Source: Paenibacillaceae bacterium (GTDB taxonomy: Bacteria > Bacillota > Bacilli > Paenibacillales > CANHGK01). Taken from it: DNA of 64,000 nucleotides. A program made the position numbers and the translations under genes. The notes beneath the pieces were generated by a model, which saw nothing but the letters and a program-made list of their open reading frames with translations, was not told where the DNA came from and did not search any database. This document shows positions 18,951-58,330 of this stretch, in pieces (positions within the stretch are counted from its first letter, which is position 1; every line of letters starts with the position of its first letter). The DNA lies in NCBI GenBank assembly GCA_947460235.1, contig CANHGK010000004.1:26144-90143 (forward strand), given 5' to 3'.

Positions 18951-18966
18951 GGAGGATATTAAATTT

Positions 18967-19767: not shown

Positions 19768-19775
19768 TGTTAAAC

Positions 19776-19830
19776 AAGGCTGGAAATCATCCCCCGACGA
19801 TTGGGAGCATGAATTCCAGCCTTTTTTTTA
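19776..19830 (+). terminator. rho-independent terminator
   Basis: aaggctggaa...ttccagcctt followed by T8. The T-run overlaps the stop codon of the convergent kinase gene. Confidence 0.6.
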
Positions 19831-25191: not shown

Positions 25192-25403
25192 TTCGACACA
25201 ACTCCTAATTAGTTTAAGAAAGCGTTTACACAACTAAGCATACCGAATCTCGAACGCCAATGCAAACCTTTTCTCATCTTTTTTAAGCACAAAATTTTAT
25301 GGCAACAAAAAAATAACCCTTTTGAGTAAACAACGATTGTCACCATAAAATTCTAGACATAATCGATCGTTTTCCCGAAGGGTTATTTTATTTTTTAAGT
25401 TAA

Positions 25404-28148: not shown

Positions 28149-28298
28149 AACAAGTCACTCCTAACATTTATGAAAGCGATTTCACAAATGATAATATAAC
28201 AAATTTGTTGAAATAGCAAAAAAATTATGGAAAGGACTTTTGAATTGTCGTAATCTATTAAATGATACTTTAATTTACAAATTAGGAGATGATTCCGT

Positions 28299-35310: not shown

Positions 35311-36000
35311 TTAATTCCATTTGGCAACTGTATCTTTTTTCACGATTGATAAACTTGCATTACGATTCGCTACATCTTTTCCACTTAATGTTTTTTCAAC
35401 ACTCGACCATGTGCCTACTGTGTATTTATATTGAATGGTTGTCCCTGATTTCACGAGTGCTTTTGTATACCAAACGTTATTGGAACCATCTTTAGGAAAC
35501 ATCATGTAGCTTGTTGCAGACCATGCTTTATTACTAGAAGCGACGAATACCCGGTATCCCTTCGTTAATGTATCAGAAGGAACGGAAACTTCTAAATTGA
35601 CGACTCCATTGTAATTTGCGACTGTTTGTGTCGTATTCATATCATTCGTTCCTACATCGATTACACGGTTTGAAATTTCTTCGAACGAATTACCTTTTTC
35701 AAAGGTATTGGTTGTTCCAAGTGAAAATTTGAATTGATGTTTGCCTTGCGTCATCGGAATCGTTACTGTCCATTGACCGCTGTATCCGCTATAGCTGTAA
35801 CCGTAAGGTGATAAAGGAGTTGCCGTAGCGTTCCAACCGTTAAAATCCCCTGCAACATACACTTGAGCATCTGCTACATAAGGGCTATTTACGATGATCG
35901 TTACATTATGAACTGCTGGACTTGCTGCAAAGGCCGGCGAGATTAAGCTTACCATCATCATTATGACCAATCCTACAACTACCAATCCTTTTTTCACCAC
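35311..36000 (-). CDS. secreted protein made of two CBM20/CBM48-like starch-binding modules
   Basis: GTG start 8 nt after AGAGGTG. Signal peptide ...SPAFA. Module 1 VYVAGDFNGWN...GKHQFKF. Module 2 YRVFVASSNKAW...WYTKA...IQYKYTVGTWSSVE...NRN. Confidence 0.65.
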   Translation of the reverse strand: MVKKGLVVVGLVIMMMVSLISPAFAASPAVHNVTIIVNSPYVADAQVYVAGDFNGWNATATPLSPYGYSYSGYSGQWTVTIPMTQGKHQFKFSLGTTNTFEKGNSFEEISNRVIDVGTNDMNTTQTVANYNGVVNLEVSVPSDTLTKGYRVFVASSNKAWSATSYMMFPKDGSNNVWYTKALVKSGTTIQYKYTVGTWSSVEKTLSGKDVANRNASLSIVKKDTVAKWN

Positions 36001-36048: not shown

Positions 36049-36077
36049 AATGTATCACGATTGCACATTTCGAACAC
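36049..36077 (-). promoter_or_regulatory. promoter-like element GTGTTC-17-TACATT facing 35311..36000
   Basis: Read on the minus strand: ttcgGTGTTC gaaatgtgcaatcgtga TACATT. The -35 position is formed by the terminal repeat of array A. Confidence 0.35.
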
Positions 36078-36126
36078 CGAAGAATTTCCGAAAACATTCC
36101 ATTTCGGTACCGAAAAAACACCGAAA
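36074..36126. repeat. CCGAAA/TTTCGG repeat array A (5 cores, includes palindrome TTTCGGTACCGAAA)
   Basis: acaccgaagaatttccgaaaacattccatttcggtaccgaaaaaacaccgaaa. Confidence 0.9.
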
Positions 36127-36256
36127 TGAAAATGGCATGTCAACGAAAAGAAATTGAATGTATTCGCTTCCAATTAACTGAATTTTGAATCTTTATATCG
36201 ATTTAGTCACAATTCATCCAATTTGATCGTCACAGCTTTGACAAATCTCAATGTTT

Positions 36257-38497
36257 TTATTTCAAAATCATTTCGGATACACGGTCCAACAACACAGAAT
36301 TTTTATCACTACTCAACTCCCAAATCATTGCGCCCCCGAGTTTTTTGGATTTTAAGTAATCTAACTTCGCATCAATTGATGTAGGATCATCGTAACTGAT
36401 GTACGTTTGTTTTTTTTCATTATATAAATATGGAACTTTCGCAACATCATTCCAATACCGGTTATAACCGTTTTTATTGATATAATTCGCTTCCAAATCC
36501 ATGTAATCAAATACACCGCCTTCCCATGTCCCTTCTATACTAGCTCCGTCACAAGGCTGATATAAACCGTGATTTGTAGACACACAGCCTTTCCAACCAC
36601 GACCGTAGAATGCTAATCCGAGAACAATTTTCGAAGAAGCTACTCCCGCATTCTCATATGCCTTAATGGCGGAATCAACAGTAAATGTGGCTGCATTCAC
36701 CGAACGATCTGCCGAGTCAAAAAATAATGGCGTATTGTTTCCACTTATGGAGTCCCACCCGCCATGAAAATCATAACTCATGATATTGATCCAATCGACG
36801 ATTTTTGAAATTTGATCCAATTGTGTATTTTCGAGATATGCAGGACTGGCTCCTGAGGCAATCGTAAGCAAATATACTTTTTCGTCAAGTTTACCTGCAG
36901 CAGTTAATTGTTCTCGGATTTTTTGAAGTAACAAGGTGTAATTTAATCGATCTTCTGGTCGTCCAACGGTCAAACCACCACTGACAGGATACTCCCAATC
37001 CAAATCAACTCCATCAAATCCCCATTTCCTAATAAAACTCACCGCACTATTCGCAAATTTTGTGCGAGATGCATCAGTTAGCGCTATCGTTGAAAACTGA
37101 CTCGACCACGTCCAACCACCAACCGATATCATCGTTTTTAGATTTGGATTTTTCAACTTTAATTTTCTCAATTGGTTAAAATTCCCTCGTTTACATCCTA
37201 TATCCCAACAATCACCATCAAAAAATTTATCCGTATCCGCATACGTATCACCAATGACTATTTCTCCATTAGCAATGTTAGCAAATGCATAATTGATATG
37301 AGATATTTTTTGCGGATTAATTTGTGCAATTTGATAATTTCGGTCATAGGTTGACCAACTTGTGTAATAGGCAACAACTTTATTAGTAATATATTTGTTA
37401 GGTGTCCCTGATGGTTGTATCGTTGGTTGTATCGTTGGTTGTATCGTTGGTTGTATCGTTGGTTGTATCGTTGGTTGTATCGTTGGTTGTATCGTTGGTT
37501 GAGGTGCATTTACTATTTTCCAAACGCTCACGTGATCAGGTTGTTCTCCGCTGGTCCACCACTGCGCCATATATATTTTCCCTAAATAACTTACTTGATC
37601 GTTTGCTATATATATTTTTACCGGACTCCACGCCATCATAATATTCGGTTGGCTTTTCCAAACCTGCGACCGATCTGGATTTTCTCCTTTTGTCCACCAC
37701 TGCGCCATATACTTTATCATTTTGTATAACACAGTATCTCCTGAGTTGTATGTTTTTTCATTGGACCATTCTGAAATTATTATTGGATTCGTATCGATTG
37801 GAGATGGACTGATCGATGGTTTCGGGGATGGTGAGGGTGTTTTTACCGGAATAGGTGTCGTTGTTGGAATTGCATTTGCTGTAATATTCGCATCAACAAC
37901 TTGATAGAATGCATTTCCTGTATCTGCAATTTCCCAAACTGCTAAGATCACATGATAACCGGTGTGGTCCTTAGGTAACGTGCATGAATGCAACGGAGAA
38001 AGTGATGGTTTTGCTCCATTATCTTTCTTGAAACAAAATGGTTGAATATCAAAATCCGTACGTCTTAACGGTTGATTTGCATCCCATGTTGTTTTTGTAA
38101 TGTAATATTTCCATTCTTGCGTGGCATGCGCAGCTGTTAAATGCCATTGAAACGAAATGTTACCTTTTTTCAAATCTACTTTGCTCCAACGTTCTCTTTT
38201 TTGTTCAAAAAGTTCGCTATATTTTCCTGCCCCGGAAATCTGACCATCTTTCGGACCTGCTTGCGGATAATTACCAATAGCTTCTAAACTTTGTGGTTCA
38301 TATTGAATTACACCGCAATTTTTATTTTCACCTTGCTTACATAGCAATGCTCGACTCGGTGGTGACTCTAAATAACCATGTGCATATGTTGTTGAAAGTC
38401 CAATCGCAATCAACCACACATTTAAAAGACAAAAGAAAATTGCCATTTTGCTAAAGAAATCCCACATTTTACGCACATCAAAAAAAATACCATTCAT
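36257..38497 (-). CDS. secreted AA10 LPMO - 2x CBM5/12 - GH18 chitinase fusion
   Basis: ATG 38497 lies 7 nt after GAGGAG. Signal cleavage TYA|HGY leaves the N-terminal His of the LPMO His-brace (HGYLESPPSRALLC). Two CBM5/12 units (YMAQWWTKGENPD, YMAQWWTSGEQPD). GH18 catalytic motif DGVDLDWEYP. Confidence 0.85.
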   Translation of the reverse strand: MNGIFFDVRKMWDFFSKMAIFFCLLNVWLIAIGLSTTYAHGYLESPPSRALLCKQGENKNCGVIQYEPQSLEAIGNYPQAGPKDGQISGAGKYSELFEQKRERWSKVDLKKGNISFQWHLTAAHATQEWKYYITKTTWDANQPLRRTDFDIQPFCFKKDNGAKPSLSPLHSCTLPKDHTGYHVILAVWEIADTGNAFYQVVDANITANAIPTTTPIPVKTPSPSPKPSISPSPIDTNPIIISEWSNEKTYNSGDTVLYKMIKYMAQWWTKGENPDRSQVWKSQPNIMMAWSPVKIYIANDQVSYLGKIYMAQWWTSGEQPDHVSVWKIVNAPQPTIQPTIQPTIQPTIQPTIQPTIQPTIQPSGTPNKYITNKVVAYYTSWSTYDRNYQIAQINPQKISHINYAFANIANGEIVIGDTYADTDKFFDGDCWDIGCKRGNFNQLRKLKLKNPNLKTMISVGGWTWSSQFSTIALTDASRTKFANSAVSFIRKWGFDGVDLDWEYPVSGGLTVGRPEDRLNYTLLLQKIREQLTAAGKLDEKVYLLTIASGASPAYLENTQLDQISKIVDWINIMSYDFHGGWDSISGNNTPLFFDSADRSVNAATFTVDSAIKAYENAGVASSKIVLGLAFYGRGWKGCVSTNHGLYQPCDGASIEGTWEGGVFDYMDLEANYINKNGYNRYWNDVAKVPYLYNEKKQTYISYDDPTSIDAKLDYLKSKKLGGAMIWELSSDKNSVLLDRVSEMILK
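37413..37496. repeat. perfect 12-bp tandem repeat x7 (encodes PTIQ x7 linker)
   Basis: ggttgtatcgtt repeated seven times without a mismatch. Confidence 0.95.
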
Positions 38498-38643
38498 AAT
38501 ATCGCTCCTCAAGCTAAAATAATTTTCTGCATTAATTGGGCTTCTTGCATTAGGTGGGTAAAACGGAAATAGGAATAGAAGAAGTGAATCTAGAAAGTAG
38601 CAAACAAGAGGGTTTTGGAAGCGTTTTCTTGCGTTGTAAATTA

Positions 38644-38672
38644 ATAATAAATGTTGCTTTACGTGATGTCAA
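38644..38672 (-). promoter_or_regulatory. sigma-A-type promoter candidate for the LPMO-chitinase gene
   Basis: Minus strand TTGACA-17 nt-TATTAT, about 125 nt upstream of the ATG. Confidence 0.5.
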
Positions 38673-38744
38673 TGTACACTATTTTGAAAAGTTCATCTAT
38701 CCATGTATGCAATGCATGTTGAAGTTAGCAAATGGAGGAATCCT

Positions 38745-39880
38745 ATGTTTCAAAAAATAAGCGTTACAAATTGGGTCATTGGATTGATCGGACTTACCGG
38801 GTTGTTACTTTGAATTTTGTGGATTAGCGATATTCCAAATCATCCAATCGAATATTTTACTCGTTTTTATACACAAACGATGAATTTGTATCACGGTGAA
38901 CCGATTATTCGCTTCGGATATTACGGCATTGGATACCCATTATTTTTGAACTTGTTTTTTCAATTCACTGGTACACTCTCTATTGACAGTACACATTGGT
39001 TCAATATCTTTTGTTACATCGTTACATTTCTATGTTGAACAAATTGGATGAATCATACCGTAAAAAAATCCAAATGGAGAATTGTCAGCGCAGTAATGGT
39101 AGCTGAGTTTCCAAATTGAATTGCTGTTACGAATGTAACTAGTTCTCAATGCTTTAGTTTATTATTCACATGTTTTTAAATTCTAAATCATTTCGGACAG
39201 AATTACATAATATCACGATAGGTGCACTGATTGGCCTTTTAGCGATGAAAAAACCATTTTTTATAGCTTCCATTGAAGTCGTTTTATGCTGGGATTTTTT
39301 TGATACAAGTCATCTGGAAAGATTGGTTCCAACACGCAATTTTAATTATTTTAATGATTGGTCTCATATTATTCCATTTTTATGCAGTGTATACAACTGG
39401 AACGTTCTCCATTGTGTCTTATATTGGAGGATATAATGTGTTCTTAAATAATAATCAAAACCTAACCCGAGCATGGATGCCGATGAATCAAATCGAAAAA
39501 TCAGATTCATTCCGAAATCAACTCAATTAATTGTCCATATCCGCTTGATTGCCCAAATGCTGAAAAATATTATAAAAAAGAAGCTGTACATTTGATCATC
39601 GCTCATCCAAACAATTCTTAACCTTAGGTATCAAACGATGGTTGAATACATTTTGGTCCAAACATGATGATTTGACAACATAGGTTGCCGATAAATCCTG
39701 GATGAATAATGATGAACATTACAATTTTTAAAACCATGTACAGACACTTCAGAATTATTGGTACCGTATAACATTCATTTTAACCGTTGGAGGCACGATC
39801 GTTCCGACCTGAAGAGACCTTTGTTAGCGGTAATTTAGATTTTGTTTTTTTATGATTATTGAAATTGTTTTGGATGCAAA
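38745..39880 (+). pseudogene. decayed GT39/PMT_2-like membrane glycosyltransferase gene
   Basis: Good RBS (GGAGGA) and ATG at 38745, but the frame stops after 22 codons. Similarity continues in other frames (WISDIPNHP...YGIGYPLFLNLFFQF; YIGGYNVFLNNNQN) and is interrupted by several stops and frameshifts. The end is approximate. Confidence 0.5.
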
Positions 39881-39951
39881 TCATAGATTGTACTCGATGA
39901 AAAACGGGACACTCACAAACGGTTAAATACCGCTTGGGATGCCCCGTTTTT

Positions 39952-42900
39952 TTAATATGGTCTACCTGATTTTATTACGCCACCGGTTACTGTGTAAATG
40001 CCAGTTGAGAACGTGTAATTTTTCGAAGCATTATTATCCCATATCGTACTTCCATTATTAAAGCATGATTCAATACCTGAAGATGTTCCTACTGAAACGG
40101 TAATAACACTATATCCTGTGTAACCAGAAGAACTCATTGAAACACCAGGAGCCATCGTCCAAACACCACCAATTGGTCGATAATGAATATAAGCTGTTGG
40201 GAATGAATTTTTATAATAGACAGTGACAACATTCGATGGTGGTTCACCTTGACTTAAGATGCCATTATTAACTGTCCATATCCCGGTTGGTATGACGTAA
40301 TTTTGATTATTGTTGTTATCCCAACGTGTGCCGTTATCCGTAAACGCAGCTTTAGCGATTCCGGAAGGTCCACTTTGAATTGTTAATACCCAATACCCAT
40401 TCCCTGCATCTGCCATTGCAACACCTGGCATTGTCGTCCATTGAGTACCATTTAATGAGTAATGAATATTTGACTGAGTCCAAGCGTTATTGCGATAGAA
40501 GATTTTCACCGTATTGCTTGGAGAAGCTGTTGGCGTAACGGTTGGAACCGGTGTGATTGATGGTACCGGTGTAACCAGCGGTGTCGGTGTAGCCGAACCT
40601 ATTGGTGTAGATGTTGGAGAAGGTGTTGCATTTACAACGAAAAATGGTGAACCTTGACTCATCACTCCGTTGTTGATCGTCCAAATCCCTACCGGCACTG
40701 TATAGTTTTTGCTTGTATTATTATCCCATCTTGTACCATTATCTGTGAACGCAGCTTTTACTAATCCATTTCCGCCTGTTTCAATGACTCCAACCCAATA
40801 TCCATTCCCCGTGTCTGTTAACTTTAATCCCGGAGAAACGGTCCATGACGTTCCATTTGTTGTGTAATGGATATTCGCAGAGGTCCATGCAGTATTTCGA
40901 TAATATACCGTTACTTCAGTACTGGATAAATTAGGTGCACCAGATTGAATGTTTCCGTTATATACGTTCCATGTCCCAGGTTGGAAAGTATAATCTTTTC
41001 CGCCATAATTATCCCAATGTGTACCATTATCCGTAAATGCACAACGAACAATACCTTGGTTCGTCGTTAAGATCGTTGCCCGCCAATATCCAATGCCATA
41101 TTCACTTAGCTTCACACCAGGTGAAGTCGTCCATTTTATTCCATCCAATGAATAATGAATGTTCGCCTGATTCCATAGTGGATTGCGATAATACACCGTG
41201 ACAACGGTTGGGGTTGCACTTGGCGTATTTGTCGGCACAATCGAAGCCGTAACAAATGGTGTCGGTGAATTATTAATTGTAGGCGTCACTTGCGGTGTTA
41301 CCATTGGTGTAGTCGTTTGTTCAGGTATCGGAGTCAGCGTTGGTACTGCCGTTGGAATTGCACTATTTGTTGGCGCCGGTGTTGCTGTCAAAATTGGCGT
41401 CGCAGTTGGTACAGGAGTTGGTGTCCATATTACATCAGGAATTCCTTGCGTTAAGACTCCATTCTTTAATGTCCAGTTTCCTTGTGTAAATGAATAGTTT
41501 TTTCCGGCATTATTGTCCCAGCTTCCAATTCCGTCCGTAAAAGCAGCTTCAGAAATACTTGTAGCTGACCCTAAGCCAATAATCGTTTTATAATAAGAGA
41601 CTGAATCAAGGTATTGCATTTTCAAACCTGGCATTGCAGTCCAACTACTTAAATTTGTTTTGAAATGAATAAACGTATTTTGTAACCCTTTGTAATAAAT
41701 CGTAACCGATGCAGCACCCAAATTCGGCACACCAGCACTTACAACTCCATTATCGATCGTCCAAATTCCTGAACTGAGACTGTAATTACGATTCCCATTA
41801 TTGTCCCAGACATTAGTCCCTGAATTAAATGCTGCTTCGATACCTGCAACACTTCCTAGTGCAATCTCAATACTAGAATAACCAGCATATTCGCTTTGGT
41901 TCATTTTCGCACCTGGTATAACTGTCCAGGAACCACCAAGCAGATGATAATGTACATATTGTGTTAAACTCGCTGACTTATAATAGATCGTAACTTTTTG
42001 ATTTACCGGACTTGGTGTAGGGTTCATTGGTGTACTTGTCACTACTGGTGTACTTGTCACTACTGGTGTACTTGTCACTACTGGTGTACTTGTCACTACT
42101 GGTGTACTTGTCACTACTGGTGTGCTTGTCACTACTGGTGTGCTTGTCACTACTGGTGTGCTCGTTGGTGTTACCGTAGGTATGAATGTAGGAACCGTAG
42201 TATTCGTAGGCATGGTTCCATAAGTAACGGGTATACTTCTATCTGATACTGTCCCCAAGAGATCACTTGCTGTAATTACATATTGATATATTAGAGCAGA
42301 ATTAGCATTATTATCTGTAAAATTTGTACTTGTTGTTCTTCCCAACTTTGCATACGACCCTGGATCTGAAGACGTAACTTCTCTTCGGTAAACCTCATAC
42401 CCATTAATTCCATCATCATCTTCAGGTACAGACCACGATAAACTAACTTGAGAATTATTCAGTTGATTTGCTATTACATTTTTCGGTGCATCGGGAACTT
42501 GATTGATAGAAACATTAAGTCCGATATTTGGATATCCACTCAACTCGACTTCAAACCATTGACCTGCATCTAGCAAAATATTCATTAATTGTTTTTGTGG
42601 TGTATAAAGTCTTGTTCCATTTCTAGTGAATACTGTAGTCATTCCATCTACGTTATATATTTGATTCGTTGATGTGTCTGTCACTTGAATTGAATTGGAT
42701 TGTATTGTGTATTTTTTACCTGTACCATAAACTAAAAACCGTTTACGAACGGTATCTAACCCGGCATGATCACCTACATCTATCGATACCGTTGCCGAAG
42801 GATTTGACAAATTCCCCGCCATATCTCTCGCTTTAAGGTAAAAAGTATTAATCTTATTCTTCGTATTTAATGTAAAGATGCTAACATCCGTTCCTGACGC

Positions 42901-45162: not shown

Positions 45163-45352
45163 TAAGGGGTACACCTCACACTTTCATAAAAATCGGGGGT
45201 ATATTTATCAATCGAGTAAACAATTAAATAAAAGTAATTTCATTCAAACGTTTTCATGTTTATGTATTAGTATAAAACAAGTTTTTCGAGTTGAAAAGCC
45301 ATTGAACTGAATTGACAAAAATTCTCCTTATTCTTTTCCTGAATTTTGAACA

Positions 45353-45413
45353 AAAAAATCCGCATCCATCTGAACTGTGACCACTAAGATGGTCACAGTT
45401 CAGATGGATGCGG
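45353..45413 (-). terminator. very strong rho-independent terminator (24-bp perfect stem)
   Basis: ccgcatccatctgaactgtgacca / tggtcacagttcagatggatgcgg with a 6-nt loop, followed by T7 on the minus strand. Confidence 0.8.
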
Positions 45414-45469
45414 TAATTAGAAAACCCATTGGGGGAATTGGATAAAGGAATTTAAGTGGACAAATGAGG

Positions 45470-45670
45470 TTAAATCAAGCGGTGAGGACCAAGCGCATGA
45501 TACATTGGATGTTTAACTACCGGATATGGTGATGTTAAAGATCGAAACGATTCACTAACTTTTCCTGTTTCATCATTACTATGATCATCATCGTTATTGC
45601 CAGATCCAATTAAAGGGGTATATGCATAAAATAACGTTATCATTTCAATAGGATATTGCGGTGTATTCAT
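45470..45670 (-). CDS. small hypothetical protein (66 aa)
   Basis: ATG lies 9 nt after GGAGGA. Bounded by a promoter-like element and the strong terminator. No recognisable domain. Confidence 0.45.
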   Translation of the reverse strand: MNTPQYPIEMITLFYAYTPLIGSGNNDDDHSNDETGKVSESFRSLTSPYPVVKHPMYHALGPHRLI

Positions 45671-45704
45671 TCATTCGTTCCTCCAGTAATTTTCTTATAC
45701 GCTT

Positions 45705-45734
45705 ATTCTACACCTTGAACATGCGTTTGCGCAC
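45705..45734 (-). promoter_or_regulatory. promoter-like element GTGCGC-18-TAGAAT facing orf66
   Basis: Minus strand: ttcgGTGCGC aaacgcatgttcaaggtg TAGAAT. The -35 position is formed by the terminal repeat of array B. Confidence 0.35.
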
Positions 45735-45854
45735 CGAAGAATAACCGAAAACTTTTGATTTCGGTTATTCTTCGGTTTGATTTCGGTCACGTTACGGCAC
45801 CGAAATCAATCCACTGTGAAAACTTTTCGGTAAAAAGAACGGAATCTTCGGTGT
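45732..45854. repeat. CCGAAA/TTTCGG repeat array B (8 cores; 18-bp perfect-stem palindrome; 11-bp inverted repeat)
   Basis: accgaagaataaccgaaa-ACTTTTGA-tttcggttattcttcggt (45733-45776). ttgatttcggt-N11-accgaaatcaa (45777-45809). Further units at 45825 and 45846. Confidence 0.9.
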
Positions 45855-45879
45855 ATTTTTAGTTAGTTTGCTTTATGAT
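45851..45879 (+). promoter_or_regulatory. promoter-like element GTGTAT-17-TATGAT facing right from array B
   Basis: ttcgGTGTAT ttttagttagtttgctt TATGAT. Confidence 0.3.
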
Positions 45880-45885
45880 TTAAAT

Positions 45886-46010
45886 AGACAAAGAACAAAT
45901 CGAACTAACCAATAATCTTTCCTCACCATCAATATGCTCTTCGCATTCCCCGTATTAGCCTTCATGTTTCGAAAACGTCTGGTCTCCCCGACCAGACGTT
46001 TTCGGTTTTA
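45886..46010 (+). ncRNA. candidate short transcript (about 120 nt, C-rich) between the array B promoter-like element and a terminator
   Basis: Bounded by the element above and the hairpin 45972-46002. No ORF with an RBS. Contains ctttcctcacc and ttcccc tracts. Purely predicted. Confidence 0.25.
45972..46010. terminator. stem-loop terminator candidate (13-bp perfect stem)
   Basis: aaaacgtctggtc-tcccc-gaccagacgtttt, then cggtttta. The orientation is ambiguous. Confidence 0.5.
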
Positions 46011-46019
46011 AAATTAAAA

Positions 46020-46062
46020 AAGGTGCGACCAATTTGAGTAGCACTTCACTCGGTCACACCTT
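46020..46062 (-). terminator. possible terminator after orf70
   Basis: aaggtgcgacc...ggtcacacctt (11-bp stem with one wobble and a large loop), then a T-rich run on the minus strand. Confidence 0.4.
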
Positions 46063-46068
46063 AATGAA

Positions 46069-46281
46069 CTATTCAAAAATTGCATTGTTTTCGTTATCAT
46101 ACGGATCTCTCAATACACGCATTTTAAATGGTCCTTGAAATAACGAACTTACTCTTGCTTTGACGTCATTACGATCCATTTCATTTAAATGCAATGATGA
46201 GACGATTTCGGAATCATTTGAGTGAAATAAGAACATTCCAACATAACTTTTTTCATGAAAAATTGCTCCATTAAAGCTCAT
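46069..46281 (-). CDS. small hypothetical protein (70 aa)
   Basis: ATG lies 10 nt after AGGAGG. A promoter-like element sits upstream and a hairpin downstream. No recognisable domain. Confidence 0.5.
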   Translation of the reverse strand: MSFNGAIFHEKSYVGMFLFHSNDSEIVSSLHLNEMDRNDVKARVSSLFQGPFKMRVLRDPYDNENNAIFE

Positions 46282-46332
46282 CGATGAAAAACCTCCTGCG
46301 TGGTATCTATCGGGGAATTCCCTATATCTTAA

Positions 46333-46361
46333 ATTTTAGCAATGAAAGCGCTTTAAAACAC
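46333..46361 (-). promoter_or_regulatory. promoter-like element GTGTTT-17-TAAAAT facing orf70
   Basis: Minus strand: ttcgGTGTTT taaagcgctttcattgc TAAAAT. Confidence 0.4.
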
Positions 46362-46505
46362 CGAAAGAAAACCGAAAACTTTTGATTTCGGTTTTCTTTC
46401 GGTGTTACTGCGATTTGATTTCGGTATGATTTCGGTATTACTGCGATTTGATTTCGGTACCGAAATCAAATCTCTTCGTTAATCTTTCGGTTATTTTTCG
46501 GTGTC
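46357..46505. repeat. CCGAAA/TTTCGG repeat array C (10 cores; 21-bp perfect-stem palindrome; 20-bp direct repeat x2; 28-bp perfect palindrome)
   Basis: aacaccgaaagaaaaccgaaa-ACTTTTGA-tttcggttttctttcggtgtt (46357-46406). actgcgatttgatttcggta at 46407 and 46440. GATTTGATTTCGGTACCGAAATCAAATC at 46445-46472. Confidence 0.95.
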
Positions 46506-46529
46506 AGTTGTGATTTTACATGATAGTAT
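46501..46529 (+). promoter_or_regulatory. promoter-like element GTGTCA-17-TAGTAT (with TG at the extended -10 position) facing right from array C
   Basis: ttcgGTGTCA gttgtgattttacaTGa TAGTAT. Confidence 0.4.
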
Positions 46530-46535
46530 TAGGTT

Positions 46536-46688
46536 ATGAACAACCCCTCCATAATAAACGAAACTTCCACATACTTGCCGGAGAAACATTCGCTTCCTTC
46601 CCAAGGAAACAGTTTCACCCAACCTCTCAAACCACCTGCAATTTAGAATCGCCTGCAACCGAGCTCCCACGGTTCAGGCATTTTTTAT
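46536..46688 (+). ncRNA. candidate short transcript (about 150 nt, C-rich and G-poor), or a leaderless 36-codon ORF
   Basis: Lies between the element above and the terminator 46651-46688. Contains cccctcc, cttccttccc and cacccaacctc tracts. An ATG sits at the predicted +1 (46536) and opens 36 codons without an RBS. Purely predicted. Confidence 0.3.
46651..46688 (+). terminator. rho-independent terminator
   Basis: gcctgcaaccg-agctccca-cggttcaggc followed by T6. Confidence 0.6.
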
Positions 46689-47062
46689 TGTTTGGTTCAT
46701 TCGTAGCTCCCGTTAAGATATTTCACTAATATTTTGAAGTAATTCAACTATGAATTACACGATATGCAGATTGCTTTTACGAGTCATTTCAACATGTCAC
46801 AGTAAGCAATACAGCTCAAACAACGTCGTTAATCGGGGGCGAATGTTTTGAGTGTATTTTAGTAAAACTAACTAGCCGGTACATACGATGTTATAAATAT
46901 CATTTAGATTGAATAATATGATATTTTTAGTGTATTATAGAGCAAAATCGATTGCACACGAAAGAAGGATTTCATCTACTGTTAGCGAATGTATAAATCA
47001 AACCCTTTTCAAACAGATAGTTTTTCGTAGGGATTAATTTAAAGTGAAAGGAGCTGTTGGTT

Positions 47063-47542
47063 ATGCATCCGGATATTGAATCATTATTGAAACAAATTCA
47101 ATCAAATCAACGTAATGAATGGCGTTTGGAGATGGTAGAACCCATTCGAGGCGAGATTTCTTTGCTTGATCCATATACCGGAGAACCGCTTACACTTTCG
47201 ACAGAAATTTTGGATTTAAGTGCGGGTGGTTTGGGGATTCATACGAATGTAGCGATTGTACGTAAAAATCAATTACTACCTAACGGTCAAGATTTGACAA
47301 CATTACCGATCCCTATAGATATTTCATTTCAATGGAATGGTCAATCCATTGCATTAAAAGGATTACTTATTTGGAATATGGACATGACATCCGAAGATCA
47401 GCGATACCAATATGGCGTATCCCTTACCTTTGATACCCCTGACAAACAAATAGAGCAAGAACGATTAATGCAACATATGGTTGATACGATCCGCTCTCGT
47501 CAATTTGAATTTGAAACGTGGTTAAATCGAAAAACAATCTAA
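47063..47542 (+). CDS. PilZ domain protein (c-di-GMP receptor candidate)
   Basis: ATG 47063 lies 9 nt after AAGGAG. QRNEWR (RxxxR) and DLSAGGLGI (DxSxxG) motifs. Confidence 0.7.
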   Translation: MHPDIESLLKQIQSNQRNEWRLEMVEPIRGEISLLDPYTGEPLTLSTEILDLSAGGLGIHTNVAIVRKNQLLPNGQDLTTLPIPIDISFQWNGQSIALKGLLIWNMDMTSEDQRYQYGVSLTFDTPDKQIEQERLMQHMVDTIRSRQFEFETWLNRKTI

Positions 47543-47559
47543 ACCATCATAGGTTACAT

Positions 47560-47612
47560 AAAAAAGGCTTCCGACTTGAAGGTTTTAACCTTCCAACGGA
47601 AGCCTTTTATTT
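47560..47612. terminator. bidirectional terminator between the PilZ and Mo-oxidoreductase genes
   Basis: aaaggcttccg...cggaagccttt with an inner ttgaaggtt/aaccttccaa pairing, plus flanking A and T runs. Confidence 0.7.
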
Positions 47613-48837
47613 ATCCTTTTTCGATCCATGCATCACGATCATATCCGCGAACTTCCCAATACCCATCCTCTTCTTTATTAATGATCTCAATTCGGCTAAG
47701 CCATTTTACAGATTTATATGCGTACATTTTAGGCACGATTAATCGAACCGGTCCGCCATATTCAATTCCAATCGGTTTCCCATCATGTAATACTGCAACC
47801 ATAATATCTTCTGCTTTCGCCTGCTCTAATGTTAATGTGTCTGTATATTTTAAATCAGAAGAATAAAACTTAACCATACTTGCATCCTGCGTAACTCCGA
47901 CAAATACAAGCAGATCAGATAATCGAATACCTTCCCACGTGTTGTGATATACTGACCAACCGGTCACGCAATGAAAGTCGCTGACTTGTACAACTCTCGG
48001 AAATTTTAAAAACTGTTCCCAATTCCAACTTACGATACGCTTCACATGTCCATCAATGATAAAATTCCATGTTTTTGAATCCGCTTCTGGAATTTTGGTA
48101 ACCGTATATACTCTGAATTCTCCGCTTGCCCCTCCGCCAATTACATTTACAGAATCAGGTAGTGGTTTTGGTGCAGGTAACATTTTGTTTACTTCTACTG
48201 TATCCCCCGATATTAAGTGTGCAGGACTCAATTCCACTTTCTGTTGAAACCATCTCAACCCATATGGTAAAAACAATGCTACGATCCCAACGCCTACAGC
48301 ACCATTTACGAACCGTCTTCTCGAAACGACAGGACGACCAGTAATTGTAGGTCTTCCGTATTGAAGTTCCAATTGCTCATTTTGTTCTTCGACTTCATTG
48401 ATGGCCGATTTACGGTCAAGTTCCTTAATCCAACGTAACCGAGTCACCGTATGATACAAAGCGTATGGAACACCTACCCAAGTAAAAAAATCATGAATAA
48501 CTAGTGCAGTATTAACCCATTCCGAAGGGTACGCTCGAAATTGCCATAATATGATACCTGAAATGATCCACCCTAATAGCAAAATTAAAACAATTCCCAA
48601 ATTCACTTTTTGCGACATTCGTTCACGAAGTTTTTTCAAATGCATCGATAAACTAGGGAGATATAAAAATAACAATCCAACCAATACTAATCCAATGAGA
48701 ATGTGTGCTTCTTTAATCCACACGCGAACTTCACCAAGTTGTCCGCGAATGGAACCTATGCTCAATATCAATCCACTGAACACCAATATCAAGATAATCC
48801 AAGCATTCCAACGATGTAAACGATTTAAGAAACGCAC
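47611..48837 (-). CDS. membrane-anchored molybdopterin-dependent oxidoreductase (sulfite-oxidase / MsrP-like domain fused to a 4-5 TM His-containing domain)
   Basis: C-terminal VSDFHCVTGWSVYHNTWEGIRLSDLL and YGGPVRLIVP motifs. The N-terminus has multiple TM helices with conserved-looking His residues. Confidence 0.75.
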   Translation of the reverse strand: MRFLNRLHRWNAWIILILVFSGLILSIGSIRGQLGEVRVWIKEAHILIGLVLVGLLFLYLPSLSMHLKKLRERMSQKVNLGIVLILLLGWIISGIILWQFRAYPSEWVNTALVIHDFFTWVGVPYALYHTVTRLRWIKELDRKSAINEVEEQNEQLELQYGRPTITGRPVVSRRRFVNGAVGVGIVALFLPYGLRWFQQKVELSPAHLISGDTVEVNKMLPAPKPLPDSVNVIGGGASGEFRVYTVTKIPEADSKTWNFIIDGHVKRIVSWNWEQFLKFPRVVQVSDFHCVTGWSVYHNTWEGIRLSDLLVFVGVTQDASMVKFYSSDLKYTDTLTLEQAKAEDIMVAVLHDGKPIGIEYGGPVRLIVPKMYAYKSVKWLSRIEIINKEEDGYWEVRGYDRDAWIEKG

Positions 48838-48932
48838 GCAAATTCACCTCGCCTGGTTCACTTTTTTCTATTATACTATGCATTAATGATGGATTGAAAT
48901 TGACATCTTTTAAAAGGAGCGAACAAAAACTC

Positions 48933-49514
48933 ATGTCCAATTATCATTTTCTTGCACATATTAACCGACTTCGGCACATTAAACGTTGGAGTTTAATGCG
49001 CAATATCGAACAAGAAAGTGTTTCTGAACATACGTACCATATGACATTGATTTTGCATATGCTTTGTATGATTGGAAAGGAAATATTTAATAAAAACATT
49101 CCCACCGAGAAATTGGTTTTACTTGCGCTGTATCATGATGTGACGGAAGTATTTACCGGTGATTTGCCAACACCAATTAAACATCATAACAAACAATTTT
49201 TGACTGAGTTTGCTAAAATCGAATCTATCGCTGCTGAGCGACTTCTTGAAATGGTACCTCCAGAACTTACAAAAACATTCGAATTCTTAATCGCAAAACA
49301 AGAGGATACTGAATTAAAAAAATGGATCAAAGCAGCTGACTTGCTTGATGCCTATCTTAAATGTTTAACCGAGTTAACTGGGGGCAATCGTGAATTTTCT
49401 GTTGCAAAGGAACAAATTAAACGTTCCCTCGATAAATTAAACATGCCTGAAGTCGATTATTTTCTGGAACATTTCACACCAGGATTTGAAATGACAATAG
49501 ACGAAATTTCATAA
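48933..49514 (+). CDS. HD-domain 5'-deoxynucleotidase (YfbR-like)
   Basis: RLRHIKRWSLMRNIEQESVSEHTYHM...LYHDVTEVFTGD motifs. Confidence 0.8.
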   Translation: MSNYHFLAHINRLRHIKRWSLMRNIEQESVSEHTYHMTLILHMLCMIGKEIFNKNIPTEKLVLLALYHDVTEVFTGDLPTPIKHHNKQFLTEFAKIESIAAERLLEMVPPELTKTFEFLIAKQEDTELKKWIKAADLLDAYLKCLTELTGGNREFSVAKEQIKRSLDKLNMPEVDYFLEHFTPGFEMTIDEIS

Positions 49515-49520
49515 TCACAT

Positions 49521-49557
49521 AAAAAAACATCCCTTACAATTAAGGGATGTTTTTTAT
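49521..49557. terminator. bidirectional terminator
   Basis: aacatccctta-caat-taagggatgtt flanked by A7 and T6. Confidence 0.75.
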
Positions 49558-50057
49558 TAATCTATCCGAATTTGCCAATGTAACCATTTGGATTTACGGT
49601 CATTCAATAATTTTATTGAATTGCCTTCACTCCATTCACGCATCACTAAACAAATGAATGCATATTCCCTAATTTCCTTTGGAATGAAAAGCGAAATATT
49701 CTTATCAAACGTACGAATTCGAATACCTTTTCTGCGAAATTGGATACTTGCGACCATTTCCTTGGATACCGTAATTGCTGGCTTATGCGTCTCTAAAGAA
49801 GTAATTCGATCTTCTTCTAAAAATACCCGTTGTGATTCCCAACTTTCTTTCATACGAACAAAAAAGAATGTACCTAAAATTGAAAGTATACATCCCCAAA
49901 ACAGTCCAATTCCGATTCGCCACGATTGGTCGATTCCTAGATAATCTACTAAACTAATCAATACCGCAAATAAGACGGTGAATGCTAAGATCATCCAAAG
50001 AATTAAATTCATTTTCAACAAAGATAAATTTCGTTCGTTAATTCGACATTCTCTCAT
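49557..50057 (-). CDS. hypothetical membrane protein (2 TM plus a cytoplasmic domain)
   Basis: ATG 50057 lies 7 nt after GGAGG. Two hydrophobic helices, then a soluble domain of about 90 aa. Confidence 0.55.
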   Translation of the reverse strand: MRECRINERNLSLLKMNLILWMILAFTVLFAVLISLVDYLGIDQSWRIGIGLFWGCILSILGTFFFVRMKESWESQRVFLEEDRITSLETHKPAITVSKEMVASIQFRRKGIRIRTFDKNISLFIPKEIREYAFICLVMREWSEGNSIKLLNDRKSKWLHWQIRID

Positions 50058-50098
50058 CTTTTTTCCTCCATCACAAAACAATCCTACAACTAATGCTC

Positions 50099-50127
50099 AT
50101 CGTATCATTTATTCATCACGCTTACAC
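50099..50127 (-). promoter_or_regulatory. promoter-like element GTGTAA-17-TACGAT facing 49557..50057
   Basis: Minus strand: ttcgGTGTAA gcgtgatgaataaatga TACGAT. Confidence 0.35.
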
Positions 50128-50231
50128 CGAAAAATCCACTGCGAATTACCGAAAAAATACCGAAAGAAATTCATTTCGGTACCGAAAAAATACCGAAAGA
50201 AATTCATTTCGGTACCGAAAAAATACCGAAA
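50124..50231. repeat. CCGAAA/TTTCGG repeat array D (9 cores; 33-bp tandem repeat x2.6, each copy with TTTCGGTACCGAAA)
   Basis: accgaaaaaataccgaaagaaattcatttcggt at 50148-50180 and 50181-50213, with a partial third copy. An outer acaccgaaaaatccactgcga lies at 50124. Confidence 0.95.
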
Positions 50232-51960: not shown

Positions 51961-52065
51961 ATCAGGCCACTCCTCTTCATTTCATCTATACTGACGTATC
52001 TCCACTAATAAAAGTTGCACACAAAACTCATCATATCAAAACTTTTTATCTGTGAATATGTGAAC

Positions 52066-58194: not shown

Positions 58195-58330
58195 GACAAC
58201 ACCCCAATTCGCTCCTAAGGATATATTTCGAAAATTCCATTGATTTTTGGAGGGTAAAAACAAAAAAACACGGGCATTGTAGCAATGGTAATTACCACCG
58301 CTTCGCTGACCATGTTTTTATGTTGCTATA

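What the first reader, a model, noticed from the sequence alone, without database searches (positions are those of the whole stretch)
36049..50231. Family of four intergenic CCGAAA/TTTCGG repeat arrays whose terminal TTCGGTGT unit sits exactly at a -35 position
About 30 copies of the core CCGAA (as [ACT]ACCGAA[AG] or its complement) are packed into four intergenic segments totalling about 440 bp: 36074-36126, 45732-45854, 46357-46505 and 50124-50231. From base composition I would expect roughly one. Three arrays contain the perfect 14-bp palindrome TTTCGGTACCGAAA, and the fourth has the same half-sites split by 11 nt. The arrays also share secondary words (the ACTTTTGA loop; CCACTG[CT]GA / TACTGCGA), so they are one family. 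At six array ends the outermost unit reads outward as TTCG-GTGTnn and is followed after 17 nt (18 in one case) by a TAnnAT hexamer. The six cases are GTGTTC-17-TACATT (toward 35311..36000), GTGCGC-18-TAGAAT (toward orf66), GTGTAT-17-TATGAT, GTGTTT-17-TAAAAT (toward orf70), GTGTCA-17-TAGTAT, and GTGTAA-17-TACGAT (toward 49557..50057). I counted each spacing base by base. The -35 hexamers match sigma-A poorly. That pattern is expected of activator-dependent promoters with a binding site overlapping -35. No DNA-binding regulator is encoded beside any array, and I do not recognise the motif as a described Firmicute operator. The downstream genes are heterogeneous: a secreted CBM20 protein, two tiny proteins and a 2-TM protein.
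Basis: partly seen in the sequence, partly recalled or inferred. Interest (0 to 1): 0.85.

Follow-up and report, generated by a model that had tools for sequence, protein, structure and literature searches.

The report
Phased repeat arrays at six promoters
Four intergenic blocks of a short DNA word repeated every 11 bases sit exactly against six promoters in an uncultured soil-type bacterium; they are most likely docking sites for an unidentified regulatory protein, which makes this an undescribed regulon but an ordinary kind of gene control.

Summary
There are 32 CCGAA/TTCGG cores in 433 bp where about 1 is expected. The unit is [T/C/A]ACCGAAR plus an A/T-rich 4-bp spacer, and same-strand copies are spaced in multiples of 11 bp. 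All six outward-facing TTCGGTG(T/C) ends are followed after 17-18 nt by TAnnWT (p about 1e-8). Four of these hexamers carry an extended -10 TGn. Four promoters lie 28-45 nt upstream of start codons with good ribosome-binding sites. Similarity between promoters is confined to the units and the -10 hexamer. Five independent assemblies give identical arrays.

The terminal unit is centred at -37. In four promoters a second unit at -48 puts the pair at about -42.5, the class II activator position. The most likely explanation is a set of binding-site arrays for an unidentified oligomerising regulator encoded outside the window.

I tested and rejected the adjacent ECF sigma, the nearby SigI, PurR PurBoxes, canonical Spo0A boxes, RemA sites, replication iterons and a MITE/REP element. 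The host is a deep-branching Paenibacillaceae-like genome from a metagenome with no close relatives, so the regulator and the genome-wide distribution remain unknown. The only comparative clue is that the orf70/PilZ divergent gene pair flanking array 3 recurs in one other metagenome contig.

The parts
36074..36126 (.). Array 1: 5 units, including the palindrome TTTCGGTACCGAAA. It lies upstream of the CBM20 gene and downstream of the chitinase gene.
45732..45854 (.). Array 2: 8 units. It contains an 18-bp perfect inverted repeat with the loop ACTTTTGA and has outward-facing promoters at both ends.
46357..46505 (.). Array 3: 10 units. It contains a 21-bp perfect inverted repeat with the same loop and a 28-bp palindrome at 46445-46472, and has outward promoters at both ends. 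It lies between orf70 and the PilZ gene.
50124..50231 (.). Array 4: 9 units organised as a 33-bp higher-order repeat. It has one outward promoter on the left; its right end abuts the terminator of the anti-sigma gene.
36049..36081 (-). P1: TTCGGTGTTC-N17-TGaTACATT. Units are centred at -37, -48, >-63, -70 and -81. It drives the CBM20 gene, with GAAGAGGTG-N8-GTG about 42 nt downstream.
45705..45738 (-). P2: TTCGGTGCGC-N18-TAGAAT. Units are centred at -38, -49, >-64, >-75 and >-86. It drives orf66.
45847..45879 (+). P3: TTCGGTGTAT-N17-TATGAT. Units are centred at -37 and -58. It would drive a roughly 125-nt unit with no ribosome-binding site that ends at the bidirectional hairpin 45972-46002.
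   Evidence: the transcript end is inferred by eye
46333..46365 (-). P4: TTCGGTGTTT-N17-TGcTAAAAT. Units are centred at -37, -48, >-63 and >-74. It drives orf70, and a cre-like site lies inside the spacer.
46497..46529 (+). P5: TTCGGTGTCA-N17-TGaTAGTAT. Units are centred at -37, -48, >-74 and -81. The predicted +1 is the A of the ATG at 46536, which would make the mRNA leaderless.
50099..50131 (-). P6: TTCGGTGTAA-N17-TGaTACGAT. Units are centred at -37, -59 and -70. It drives orf166, with GGAGGA-N6-ATG about 35 nt downstream.
46398..46430 (+). P7?: an internal match, TTCGGTGTTA-N17-TATGAT, 99 bp (9 x 11) upstream of P5. Its status is uncertain.
35311..36000 (-). A secreted 229-aa protein with a CBM20 starch-binding domain and a signal peptide ending AFA/AS.
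45470..45670 (-). orf66: an acidic orphan protein with GGAGGA-N8-ATG, followed by a 20-bp-stem terminator at 45363-45410.
46069..46281 (-). orf70: an acidic small protein with AGGAGG-N10-ATG. It has one distant full-length homologue (P0243, 36% identity), which is also divergent from a PilZ gene.
46536..46646 (+). A 36-codon ORF starting at the predicted +1 of P5 and followed by a weak hairpin and T-run at about 46657-46690. It is hypothetical.
   Evidence: inference
47063..47542 (+). A 159-aa PilZ-domain protein with the RxxxR and DxSxxG motifs present. It has its own TTGAAT-N18-TGtATTAT promoter at 46909-46938.
49557..50057 (-). orf166: a two-TM orphan protein with no homologue in 5.8 billion proteins.
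46343..46356 (.). A cre-like palindrome, TGAAAGCGCTTTAA (1 mismatch to the consensus), inside the P4 spacer.

Best explanation
The four arrays are cis-regulatory platforms for one sequence-specific DNA-binding protein that is not encoded in the window.

The binding unit is 11 bp: a 7-bp core, ACCGAAR, preceded by T, C or A, followed by an A/T-rich 4-bp spacer. Units are stacked in helical phase as direct repeats 11 bp apart. They also occur as inverted pairs, with centres 15 bp apart (converging) or 7 bp apart (the 14-bp palindrome). The protein would therefore bind cooperatively as tandem and head-to-head oligomers along 50-150 bp.

At each array end that faces a transcription unit, the last unit reads TTTCGGTG(T/C) and sits at -40 to -34 of a sigma-A-type promoter. 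That promoter has a good -10, usually of the extended TGn type, and no -35 consensus. The proximal pair of units, at -37 and -48, places a bound dimer at about -42.5. From there it would contact sigma region 4 or the alpha C-terminal domain and recruit RNA polymerase, which is class II activation as seen with response regulators such as PhoB/PhoP, OmpR or Spo0A. Arrays 2 and 3 would work in both directions.

Shown: the motif, its phasing, the promoter geometry and its statistical significance, the ribosome-binding sites and terminators that define short transcription units, and the absence of a match to the candidate readers I tested.

Inferred: that a protein binds, that it activates and does not repress, and that the promoters are sigma-A dependent.
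For: - Enrichment of 32 cores against 1.04 expected, with near-perfect 11-bp phasing.
- Information is concentrated in A-C-C-G-A-A, which is invariant in 31-32 of 32 units, with an A/T-rich spacer. This points to base-specific recognition and not only DNA curvature.
- Six of six outward ends have TAnnWT at 17-18 nt (p = 1.9e-9, or 9.5e-9 after allowing post-hoc choice of spacing). TGn is present at 4 of 6 (p = 7e-4).
- Mean pairwise identity among the six promoters is 0.64 in the array-proximal 24 bp and 0.68 in the -10 hexamer. It is at background in the spacer (0.28) and downstream (0.29), where random expectation is 0.26. Only functional elements are conserved.
- Unit centres fall at -37/-38 in 6 of 6 promoters, at -48/-49 in 4 of 6, and an inverted unit at -63/-64 in 3 of 6.
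- Shine-Dalgarno sequences and start codons lie 28-45 nt downstream of P1, P2, P4 and P6, and strong terminators close the orf66 and orf70 units.
- Flanks and downstream genes are unrelated to each other.
- Outward-facing TTCGGTGT units are absent from the two array ends that face the 3' ends of genes.
- The orf70/PilZ divergent arrangement around array 3 recurs in a distant metagenome contig.
- Five independent assemblies are identical.
Against: - No binding protein has been identified, and no transcription-factor gene is in the window.
- There is no orthologous intergenic region to test conservation. The closest relatives of a conserved enzyme are only 57% identical, and the three-unit pattern found no related arrays in 596 Gb of genomes or in the JGI metagenomes.
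- Four of six promoters have an extended -10 and could be active without an activator, so repression remains possible.
- The perfect 18- and 21-bp inverted repeats in arrays 2 and 3 keep their spacer bases symmetric even though the two arrays differ from each other. Protein binding alone does not require that.
- Several driven products are orphan or doubtful ORFs.
- Only 72 kb of the genome could be examined.
Confidence: 0.6

Rival explanations
1. The arrays bind a protein, but it represses. A cooperative nucleoprotein filament or wrapped complex, in the style of omega/ParR ribbon-helix-helix arrays or of PurR nucleation, would cover the upstream promoter region of otherwise constitutive extended -10 promoters and shut them off.
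For: - Four of six promoters have TGn and so may not need a -35 element or an activator.
- With 8-10 near-perfect units over 120-150 bp, the arrays are longer than a typical activator site and resemble omega heptad arrays or parC iterons (background knowledge).
- PurR similarly sits just upstream of the -35 and spreads along the DNA (PMC8789054).
Against: - The arrays always stop at -34 and never cover the spacer, the -10 or the transcription start, which is where repressors usually act.
- An exact 17-18 nt register between the last unit and the -10 is needed for a protein-polymerase contact, not for occlusion.
- P2 and P3 lack both TGn and a -35 element, so they should be very weak without help.
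- No small ribbon-helix-helix or partition gene lies beside the arrays.
Confidence: 0.2
2. The units are low-affinity Spo0A boxes. TACCGAA differs from the 0A box TGTCGAA chiefly at G2. Many weak boxes in phase would give a steep, high-threshold response to Spo0A~P in this spore-former, driving stationary-phase small proteins from sigma-A promoters as at spoIIG and spoIIE.
For: - Both are 7-bp cores ending in CGAA. C4, G5, A6 and A7 are identical, and T at position 1 occurs in 16 of 32 units.
- The 0A box is flanked by A/T, and Spo0A regulates sigma-A promoters (PMC3485338).
- The organism carries a sporulation gene (Spore_YunB).
- The driven genes are small orphan proteins, as with several Spo0A targets (background knowledge).
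Against: - Position 2 is A in 31 of 32 units. G2 is a base-specific contact, and G2A lowers affinity about 10-fold for Spo0A from both Bacillus and C. difficile.
- Drift toward weak sites would give mixed bases, not an invariant A and an invariant C at position 3.
- Known Spo0A targets have 1-4 degenerate boxes, not 8-10 perfect ones.
Confidence: 0.08
3. The arrays are copies of a selfish or structural repeat (MITE, REP or BIME-like palindromic element) that spread locally, and the promoter-like flanks are incidental or are hybrid promoters created on insertion.
For: - Arrays 2 and 3 end in inverted ACACCGAA...TTCGGTGT termini and fold into long hairpins as single strands (z = -6.1 and -9.1).
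- Pairs of arrays share 54-56-nt segments at about 80% identity: array 1 with array 4, and array 2 with array 3.
- An unrelated multi-copy hairpin built of 11-bp CACCGAA-containing units exists in rumen Prevotellaceae.
Against: - There are no target-site duplications (read).
- The four arrays differ in length (53-149 bp) and in internal order.
- There are no further copies in 72 kb and none in the genome, metagenome, plasmid or phage collections.
- No transposase gene is nearby.
- Random insertion cannot explain six of six -10 hexamers at 17-18 nt together with TGn enrichment, with spacers at background identity.
Confidence: 0.07
4. There is no dedicated protein. The phased A-tracts (CCGAAAAAA every 11 bp) form intrinsically curved DNA or UP-element-like sequence that stimulates the promoters directly through the alpha subunit C-terminal domain.
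For: Each unit carries an A-run, and the units are in helical phase immediately upstream of -35. Upstream curved DNA is known to stimulate Bacillus promoters (background knowledge).
Against: - The most conserved positions are the non-A bases C, C and G (2.1-2.4 bits), while the A/T spacer is only weakly conserved.
- Inverted units and palindromes are not needed for curvature.
- An 11-bp period is off the 10.5-bp optimum for planar bending.
Confidence: 0.03
5. The units are overlapping sigma-I promoters. An upstream unit would supply the C-----AAA -35 element and a unit 22 bp downstream the CGAA -10 element, read by the SigI encoded 7 kb away.
For: - The clostridial sigma-I consensus is C-----AAA, then 13-14 N, then CGWA, and one C. 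thermocellum example has a CCGAATCAAAA -35 region (PMC4711584).
- Three unit pairs in arrays 3 and 4 satisfy that pattern.
- A genuine sigI/rsgI pair is present.
Against: - This organism's sigI gene has a canonical Bacillales sigma-I promoter, ACCCTCCAAAA-N15-CGAA at 58255-58227(-), so its SigI reads an ACCCnC -35 element.
- In arrays 1 and 4 the units point away from the only genes they could serve.
- This reading leaves the six precisely placed TAnnWT hexamers unexplained.
Confidence: 0.02

Closest known systems
Spo0A 0A boxes (TGTCGAA) at sigma-A promoters such as spoIIG and spoIIE
   Same: Both have a 7-bp core ending in CGAA with A/T flanks. Both occur in several copies in both orientations. 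Boxes overlap or abut the -35 region of sigma-A promoters that lack a properly placed -35. The host is a spore-forming Firmicute.
   Different: Position 2 is A, not the contacted G, in 31 of 32 units, and position 3 is an invariant C. The arrays have 5-10 near-perfect copies at a strict 11-bp period, whereas Spo0A targets have 1-4 degenerate boxes.
Pho boxes and OmpR-family tandem sites (PhoB, B. subtilis PhoP, OmpR)
   Same: A direct repeat of a 6-7-bp core plus a 4-5-bp A/T spacer gives a 10-11-bp period. Several units are stacked in phase. The sites take the place of the -35 element, and activation is by contact with RNA polymerase.
   Different: The core sequence is different. Inverted units and perfect palindromes are interspersed here. 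The proximal unit ends 21 bp upstream of the -10, against about 10 bp for E. coli pho boxes. No cognate response-regulator gene lies beside the arrays.
PurR PurBoxes of Firmicutes (AWWWCCGAACWWT)
   Same: Both have a central CGAA in an A/T-rich context, an inverted arrangement and a location just upstream of the -35. PurR oligomerises and wraps about 100 bp of DNA, and in Lactococcus it activates promoters lacking a -35.
   Different: All 32 units have at least 2 mismatches to the consensus. The C after CCGAA is never present (A in 28, G in 4). Inverted-pair distances are 15, 26 or 37 bp, not about 30 bp. The target genes are unrelated to purine metabolism.
RemA-binding regions of the B. subtilis eps and tapA promoters
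   Same: Six or more short repeats in helical phase span about 70-100 bp upstream of the promoter. They are bound by a small oligomeric protein that wraps DNA and activates transcription.
   Different: RemA sites are poorly conserved, A/T-rich, direct repeats only, and consist of 7 bp plus 3 bp (a 10-bp period). Here the core is invariant, the period is 11 bp, and both orientations occur.
Omega (pSM19035) heptad arrays and ParR/parC iterons
   Same: Families of arrays of short repeats, direct and inverted, are placed on several promoters of one replicon and end at the -35 region. R1 parC uses 11-bp iterons.
   Different: Those arrays are contiguous repeats on plasmids, act as repressor and centromere sites, and lie next to the cognate small ribbon-helix-helix gene and a partition ATPase. 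None of these is present here, and the context is chromosomal.

Membership tests
Spo0A 0A box | 7-bp core TGTCGAA with base-specific contacts at G2, C4 and G5 | tested here: not met
   C4 and G5 are present in 32 of 32 units, but position 2 is A in 31 of 32. G2A lowers Spo0A affinity about 10-fold (PMC3485338).
Spo0A 0A box | A spo0A gene in the genome with a conserved recognition helix | not testable with these tools
   Only 72 kb of the genome is accessible, and spo0A is not in it.
PurR PurBox | Match to AWWWCCGAACWWT | tested here: not met
   The units have 2-6 mismatches and none has 1 or fewer. The base after CCGAA is A in 28, G in 4 and C in 0.
PurR PurBox | Two inverted 14-bp boxes separated by 16-17 bp | tested here: not met
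   Centre-to-centre distances for converging units are 15, 26, 37 and 48 bp. A PurBox pair needs about 30-31 bp.
PurR PurBox | Located just upstream of the -35 of purine or nucleotide metabolism genes | tested here: inconclusive
   The position criterion is met, but the target genes are not purine-related.
OmpR/PhoB-type tandem response-regulator sites | Direct repeats of a 6-7-bp core with a 10-11-bp period and an A/T-rich spacer | tested here: met
   Twelve adjacent same-strand pairs are exactly 11 bp apart, and the spacer positions are A/T-rich.
OmpR/PhoB-type tandem response-regulator sites | The site replaces or abuts the -35 of a promoter with a good -10 | tested here: met
   The terminal core lies at -40 to -34, and the -35 hexamers read GTGYnn.
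OmpR/PhoB-type tandem response-regulator sites | A cognate winged-helix response regulator exists and binds the sites | not testable with these tools
   No DNA-binding response regulator is in the window. The 911-aa receiver protein carries a kinase-like ATPase, not a DNA-binding domain.
RemA binding region | Poorly conserved A/T-rich 7-bp direct repeats separated by 3 bp (10-bp period) | tested here: not met
   The period here is 11 bp, the core is invariant, and both orientations occur. RemA features are from PMC8481266.
Sigma-I promoter | C-----AAA, N13-14, CGWA, or the Bacillales form ACCCCC--AA, N15, CGAA, oriented toward the gene | tested here: not met
   Three unit pairs fit the loose clostridial pattern but point away from genes or into the array. 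The sigI gene's own promoter is the ACCCTC type.
ECF sigma promoter (of the adjacent ECF sigma) | Same -35/-10 elements as the autoregulated promoter of the sigma gene | tested here: not met
   The sigma gene's own promoter is TGCAAC-N17-CGTC at 52019-51993(-), and no such pair is present at the arrays.
MITE / REP-like mobile repeat | Terminal inverted repeats plus target-site duplication | tested here: not met
   Arrays 2 and 3 have termini resembling terminal inverted repeats, but there is no duplication of flanking bases. Arrays 1 and 4 lack such termini.
MITE / REP-like mobile repeat | Many near-identical copies scattered without regard to promoters | tested here: inconclusive
   There are four dissimilar copies in 72 kb, all promoter-associated, and none in public collections.
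Plasmid or phage replication iterons; partition centromere | An adjacent rep, primase, or parA/parM-parR gene | tested here: not met
   No such gene was found in the Pfam, PHROGs or PADLOC scans of the neighbourhood. There is no plasmid or phage similarity.

The most novel reading that the evidence does not exclude
The arrays could be winding platforms for a small, unrecognised ring- or filament-forming DNA-wrapping protein, comparable to RemA, that is tied to c-di-GMP signalling. The conserved divergent pair orf70/PilZ that flanks array 3 would then be part of a new c-di-GMP-responsive transcription module that autoregulates and controls a set of secreted or small proteins. The perfectly symmetric long dyads would reflect the symmetry of a higher-order protein assembly.
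Probability: 0.08. Interest if true: 0.7.

Novelty: new member of a known kind. Interest (0 to 1): 0.4.

Why it matters
If confirmed, this defines the recognition code and promoter layout of an undescribed regulator in a deep-branching, uncultured lineage related to Paenibacillaceae. The features are unusually easy to read: an invariant 7-bp core, a strict 11-bp phase, a fixed -37/-48 register, and arrays that serve promoters in both directions.

That makes it a good model for how oligomerising activators use helical phasing, and a ready-made PWM for finding the regulator by DAP-seq or by looking for autoregulation once the full genome is scanned.

It also flags several orphan small proteins, and a PilZ partner gene, as genuinely expressed and co-regulated units. 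The general principle of activator sites abutting a -35-less promoter is well established, so the gain is a new regulon, not a new mechanism.

Tried and rejected
**Mobile-element origin.** Megablast and blastn of the region and of array 3 against plasmids and phages gave no match.

**Collection scans.** I scanned with the three-unit pattern ACCGAA-N5-ACCGAA-N10-TTCGGT.
- Genomes: 24 hits, about the chance expectation, and none from a relative.
- Metagenomes: 76 hits. The dense ones are GC-rich CCGAACCGAA arrays that look eukaryotic and are unrelated.
- Viral contigs: 8 hits. These are phage origin-like iterons with different units.

**Known RNA families.** Rfam found none at the gathering threshold. 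At relaxed thresholds only hairpins matching miRNA models appeared.

**Candidate readers.**
- The ECF sigma and SigI were rejected from their own promoters.
- PurBox, 0A box and RemA were rejected on defining features.

**Literature.** The 14-mer gave no hits. The 12-mer gave only cloning primers containing KpnI sites.

**Comparative genomics.**
- The closest homologues of a conserved enzyme are 57% identical.
- orf166 is an orphan.
- An attempt to fish paralogues of a hybrid kinase, to sample more of the same genome, returned only distant kinases from many phyla.
- Two exact-protein look-ups at the window edges failed.

**Strain variation.** All five samples are 100% identical.

**Structure of orf70.** The model had pLDDT 49 and was unusable, so I did not run a fold search.

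**Other protein libraries.** PADLOC and PHROGs scans of the array-driven proteins found nothing.

**Contig with the orf70 homologue.** Its DNA could not be retrieved.

Full report
**Context.** The window has 38.7% G+C. It is chromosomal DNA of an uncultured spore-forming Firmicute. It is identical to scaffold_15 (337.6 kb) of ENA assembly ERZ28612991 and to Logan contigs from SRR6787519, SRR6788424 and ERR3761210-13. The closest homologues of a conserved 408-aa molybdopterin oxidoreductase are only 56-57% identical and come from Cohnella and Paenibacillus. The lineage is therefore a deep branch near Paenibacillaceae with no sequenced close relative. The neighbourhood is rich in secreted polysaccharide-active proteins: two CBM25 amylases, a GH18+LPMO chitinase, and a 1740-aa S8 protease with six CBM25 modules. 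It also carries signalling genes: dCache hybrid kinases, a chemoreceptor, an ECF sigma/anti-sigma pair and a SigI/RsgI pair.

The four segments (433 bp) contain 32 CCGAA/TTCGG cores where 1.04 are expected from the rest of the window (Poisson 5e-36). There is no other cluster in the window or in 8.4 kb beyond its left edge. A matrix built from the 32 units shows an invariant A-C-C-G-A-A, then R (A in 28, G in 4), preceded by T, C or A and followed by an A/T-rich 4-bp spacer. Same-strand spacings are multiples of 11 in 51 of 53 pairs. Converging inverted units have centres 15 + 11n bp apart, and diverging ones 7 + 11n bp apart, the 7-bp case being the 14-bp palindrome. Arrays 2 and 3 assemble identically in five independent assemblies.

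**The array ends are promoters in every respect that sequence can show.**
- All six outward-reading TTCGGTG(T/C) units are followed after 17 nt (18 in one case) by TAnnWT. With an intergenic hexamer frequency of 0.0178 per position, six of six has p = 1.9e-9, or 9.5e-9 after allowing post-hoc choice of spacing.
- Four hexamers (P1, P4, P5, P6) are preceded by TGn (p = 7e-4).
- None of the 9 TTCGGTG copies in coding sequence shows the hexamer at that distance.
- Mean pairwise identity among the six promoters is 0.64 in the array-proximal 24 bp and 0.68 in the -10 hexamer. It is 0.28 in the spacer and 0.29 downstream, against a random expectation of 0.26. Only the units and the -10 are conserved. 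That is the signature of function and not of a repeated element that carries its own promoter.
- P1, P2, P4 and P6 lie 28-45 nt upstream of start codons with GGAGG-type ribosome-binding sites.
- The orf66 unit ends in a 20-bp-stem terminator. The orf70 unit ends at a bidirectional hairpin at 45972-46002, which I identified by eye.
- The predicted +1 of P5 is the A of an ATG that opens a 36-codon ORF.
- P3 would give a transcript of about 125 nt with no ribosome-binding site.
- The two array ends that face the 3' ends of genes (the right ends of arrays 1 and 4) have no outward-facing terminal unit.

**Architecture relative to +1** (taken as 7 nt after the hexamer). A unit is centred at -37/-38 in all six promoters. 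A second unit lies at -48/-49 in P1, P2, P4 and P5, and an inverted unit at -63/-64 in P1, P2 and P4. Further units continue in phase to about -118. The proximal pair is thus centred at about -42.5, and the arrays never enter the spacer or the -10. This is the class II position from which response regulators and other activators contact sigma region 4 or alpha (established knowledge). That is why I favour activation. The extended -10 motifs keep repression open as the main rival.

**Who reads the motif?** No protein encoded here does.
- The ECF sigma gene next to array 4 has its own TGCAAC-N17-CGTC promoter at 52019-51993(-).
- The SigI gene scores above the TIGR02895 cut-off. It has a canonical Bacillales sigma-I promoter, ACCCTCCAAAA-N15-CGAA, at 58255-58227(-) (consensus from PMC4711584). 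Unit pairs 22 bp apart can mimic the loose clostridial sigma-I pattern, but they point the wrong way in arrays 1 and 4.
- No classical transcription factor is present in the window. The 911-aa receiver protein carries a kinase-like ATPase.
- The array-driven small proteins and the PilZ protein are acidic, with pI 4.8-5.6.
- PADLOC and PHROGs give nothing.

**Comparison with known operators.**
- The nearest by sequence is the Spo0A 0A box, TGTCGAA. The units read TACCGAA, but the contacted G2 is A in 31 of 32 units, and G2A costs about 10-fold in affinity.
- PurBoxes share the CGAA core, the A/T context, the position upstream of the -35 and DNA wrapping. They fail on the consensus (at least 2 mismatches in every unit, and never CCGAAC) and on pair spacing.
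- RemA sites are phased but poorly conserved, direct only, and have a 10-bp period.
- Pho-box and OmpR-type sites share the 7+4 = 11-bp grammar and the replacement of the -35, so this is the best analogy for how the arrays work. Membership cannot be tested without the protein.
- Literature searches for the palindrome found nothing relevant.

**Mobile or structural repeat?** Arrays 2 and 3 have inverted termini and strong hairpin potential (z = -6.1 and -9.1). Arrays 1 and 4 are much weaker (z = -2.7 and -4.1). Array pairs share about 80% identity over 54-56 nt. Against mobility:
- There are no target-site duplications.
- The arrays differ in length and internal order.
- The flanks are unrelated.
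- There is no transposase gene.
- There are no other copies in 72 kb.
- There are no related arrays in 596 Gb of species-representative genomes, in the JGI metagenomes, or in plasmids or phages.

The perfectly symmetric spacers of the long dyads remain unexplained. Hairpin-templated repair or the symmetry of a bound oligomer are possible causes.

**Comparative clue.** orf70 has exactly one homologue among 1.84 billion representative proteins. It is a 78-aa protein, 36% identical over the full length, E = 1.2e-5. On its 2.4-kb metagenome contig that gene is divergent from a PilZ-domain gene across 333 bp. This is the same arrangement as orf70, array 3 and the PilZ gene here. The DNA of that contig was not retrievable, so I could not check whether it carries arrays. 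orf166 is an orphan.

**Verdict.** The most likely explanation is a set of phased binding-site arrays for an unidentified, probably activating, oligomeric regulator, with confidence about 0.6. A repressor version stands at about 0.2, and the other rivals are minor. This is a new motif and regulon of a familiar mechanistic kind. Interest is moderate.

Noticed in passing
window 58227-58255 (-); also 2970-2998 (+): A canonical Bacillales sigma-I promoter, ACCCTCCAAAA-N15-CGAA, lies in front of the sigI/rsgI operon. This implies that the sigI start codon is about 40 codons downstream of the longest ORF. A second match, ACCCCTGAAA-N15-CGAA, lies near a polysaccharide deacetylase gene.
   Followed up: partly
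window 51993-52019 (-): A textbook ECF promoter, TGCAAC-N17-CGTC, lies upstream of the ECF sigma/zf-HC2 anti-sigma operon that abuts array 4.
   Followed up: yes
window 28171-28184, 25217-25230, 46343-46356: cre (CcpA) consensus sites: a perfect one just upstream of the 914-aa CBM25 amylase gene, a one-mismatch site at the start of the 1016-aa amylase gene, and a one-mismatch site inside the spacer of the orf70 promoter P4. Overall enrichment is modest (15 found against 8.4 expected).
   Followed up: partly
window 46069-46281 and 47063-47542; JGI 3300059473 contig (no DNA available): The small protein orf70 and a PilZ (c-di-GMP-binding) gene form a divergent pair that recurs in one distant metagenome contig. 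The PilZ protein has intact RxxxR and DxSxxG motifs. A second weak PilZ-like protein lies at 18402-18950.
   Followed up: partly
window 38513-39951 and 45175-47056: Two stretches of 1.4 and 1.9 kb have almost no convincing coding sequence (34-37% G+C) in an otherwise gene-dense region. The second holds arrays 2 and 3 and the tiny transcription units. The first has no arrays and was not explained.
   Followed up: no
window 41992-42201 and 37388-37513: In-frame tandem repeats of 18 bp (9 copies, in the S8/CBM25 protease gene) and 12 bp (8 copies, in the PT linker of the chitinase gene). Both coincide with the 100-base gaps in the ENA scaffold.
   Followed up: partly
window 6164-22044: A cluster of four dCache and/or hybrid histidine kinase genes, plus a 911-aa protein with a central receiver domain and a C-terminal kinase-like ATPase, with no DNA-binding response regulator nearby. 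This looks like a multi-step phosphorelay whose output is unknown.
   Followed up: partly
L105 1300-1600 (IMGVR_UViG_2519103102_000001): A low-GC viral contig carries GGTAACCGAAA/TTTCGGTTACC iterons in 11-bp tandem and as an inverted pair separated by 8 bp, between a 160-aa gene and an 830-aa primase-helicase gene. It is probably a phage replication origin.
   Followed up: partly
L106-L109, L111 (five viral contigs from metagenome 3300045988): A related phage family carries 22-bp iterons, GTACCGAAAACTATACCCTTAC, plus other repeat families in one region. They share the GTACCGAAA word with the window's palindrome but have a different period and organisation.
   Followed up: partly
L005, L006, L021, L022, L008, L027 (rumen Prevotellaceae/Bacteroidaceae MAGs): A multi-copy long perfect hairpin built from 11-bp tandem units (ATGTCCACCGA / TCGGTGGACAT) with a 3-nt centre occurs at least four times in one MAG. 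It looks like a REP- or terminator-like element and is unrelated to the window's arrays, despite the shared CACCGAA word and 11-bp period.
   Followed up: no
L028, L034, L038, L049, L084, L095 and others (Ga0182xxx metagenome contigs): GC-rich inverted arrays of CCGAACCGAA/TTCGGTTCGG that look like subterminal repeats of eukaryotic (plant-type) transposons. They were picked up only because of the search pattern.
   Followed up: no
whole window; samples SRR6787519, SRR6788424, ERR3761210, ERR3761211, ERR3761213, ERZ28612991: The organism is 100% identical at the nucleotide level in every contig recovered from six accessions of at least two sequencing projects. This suggests a clonal population or a shared enrichment or source.
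   Followed up: partly
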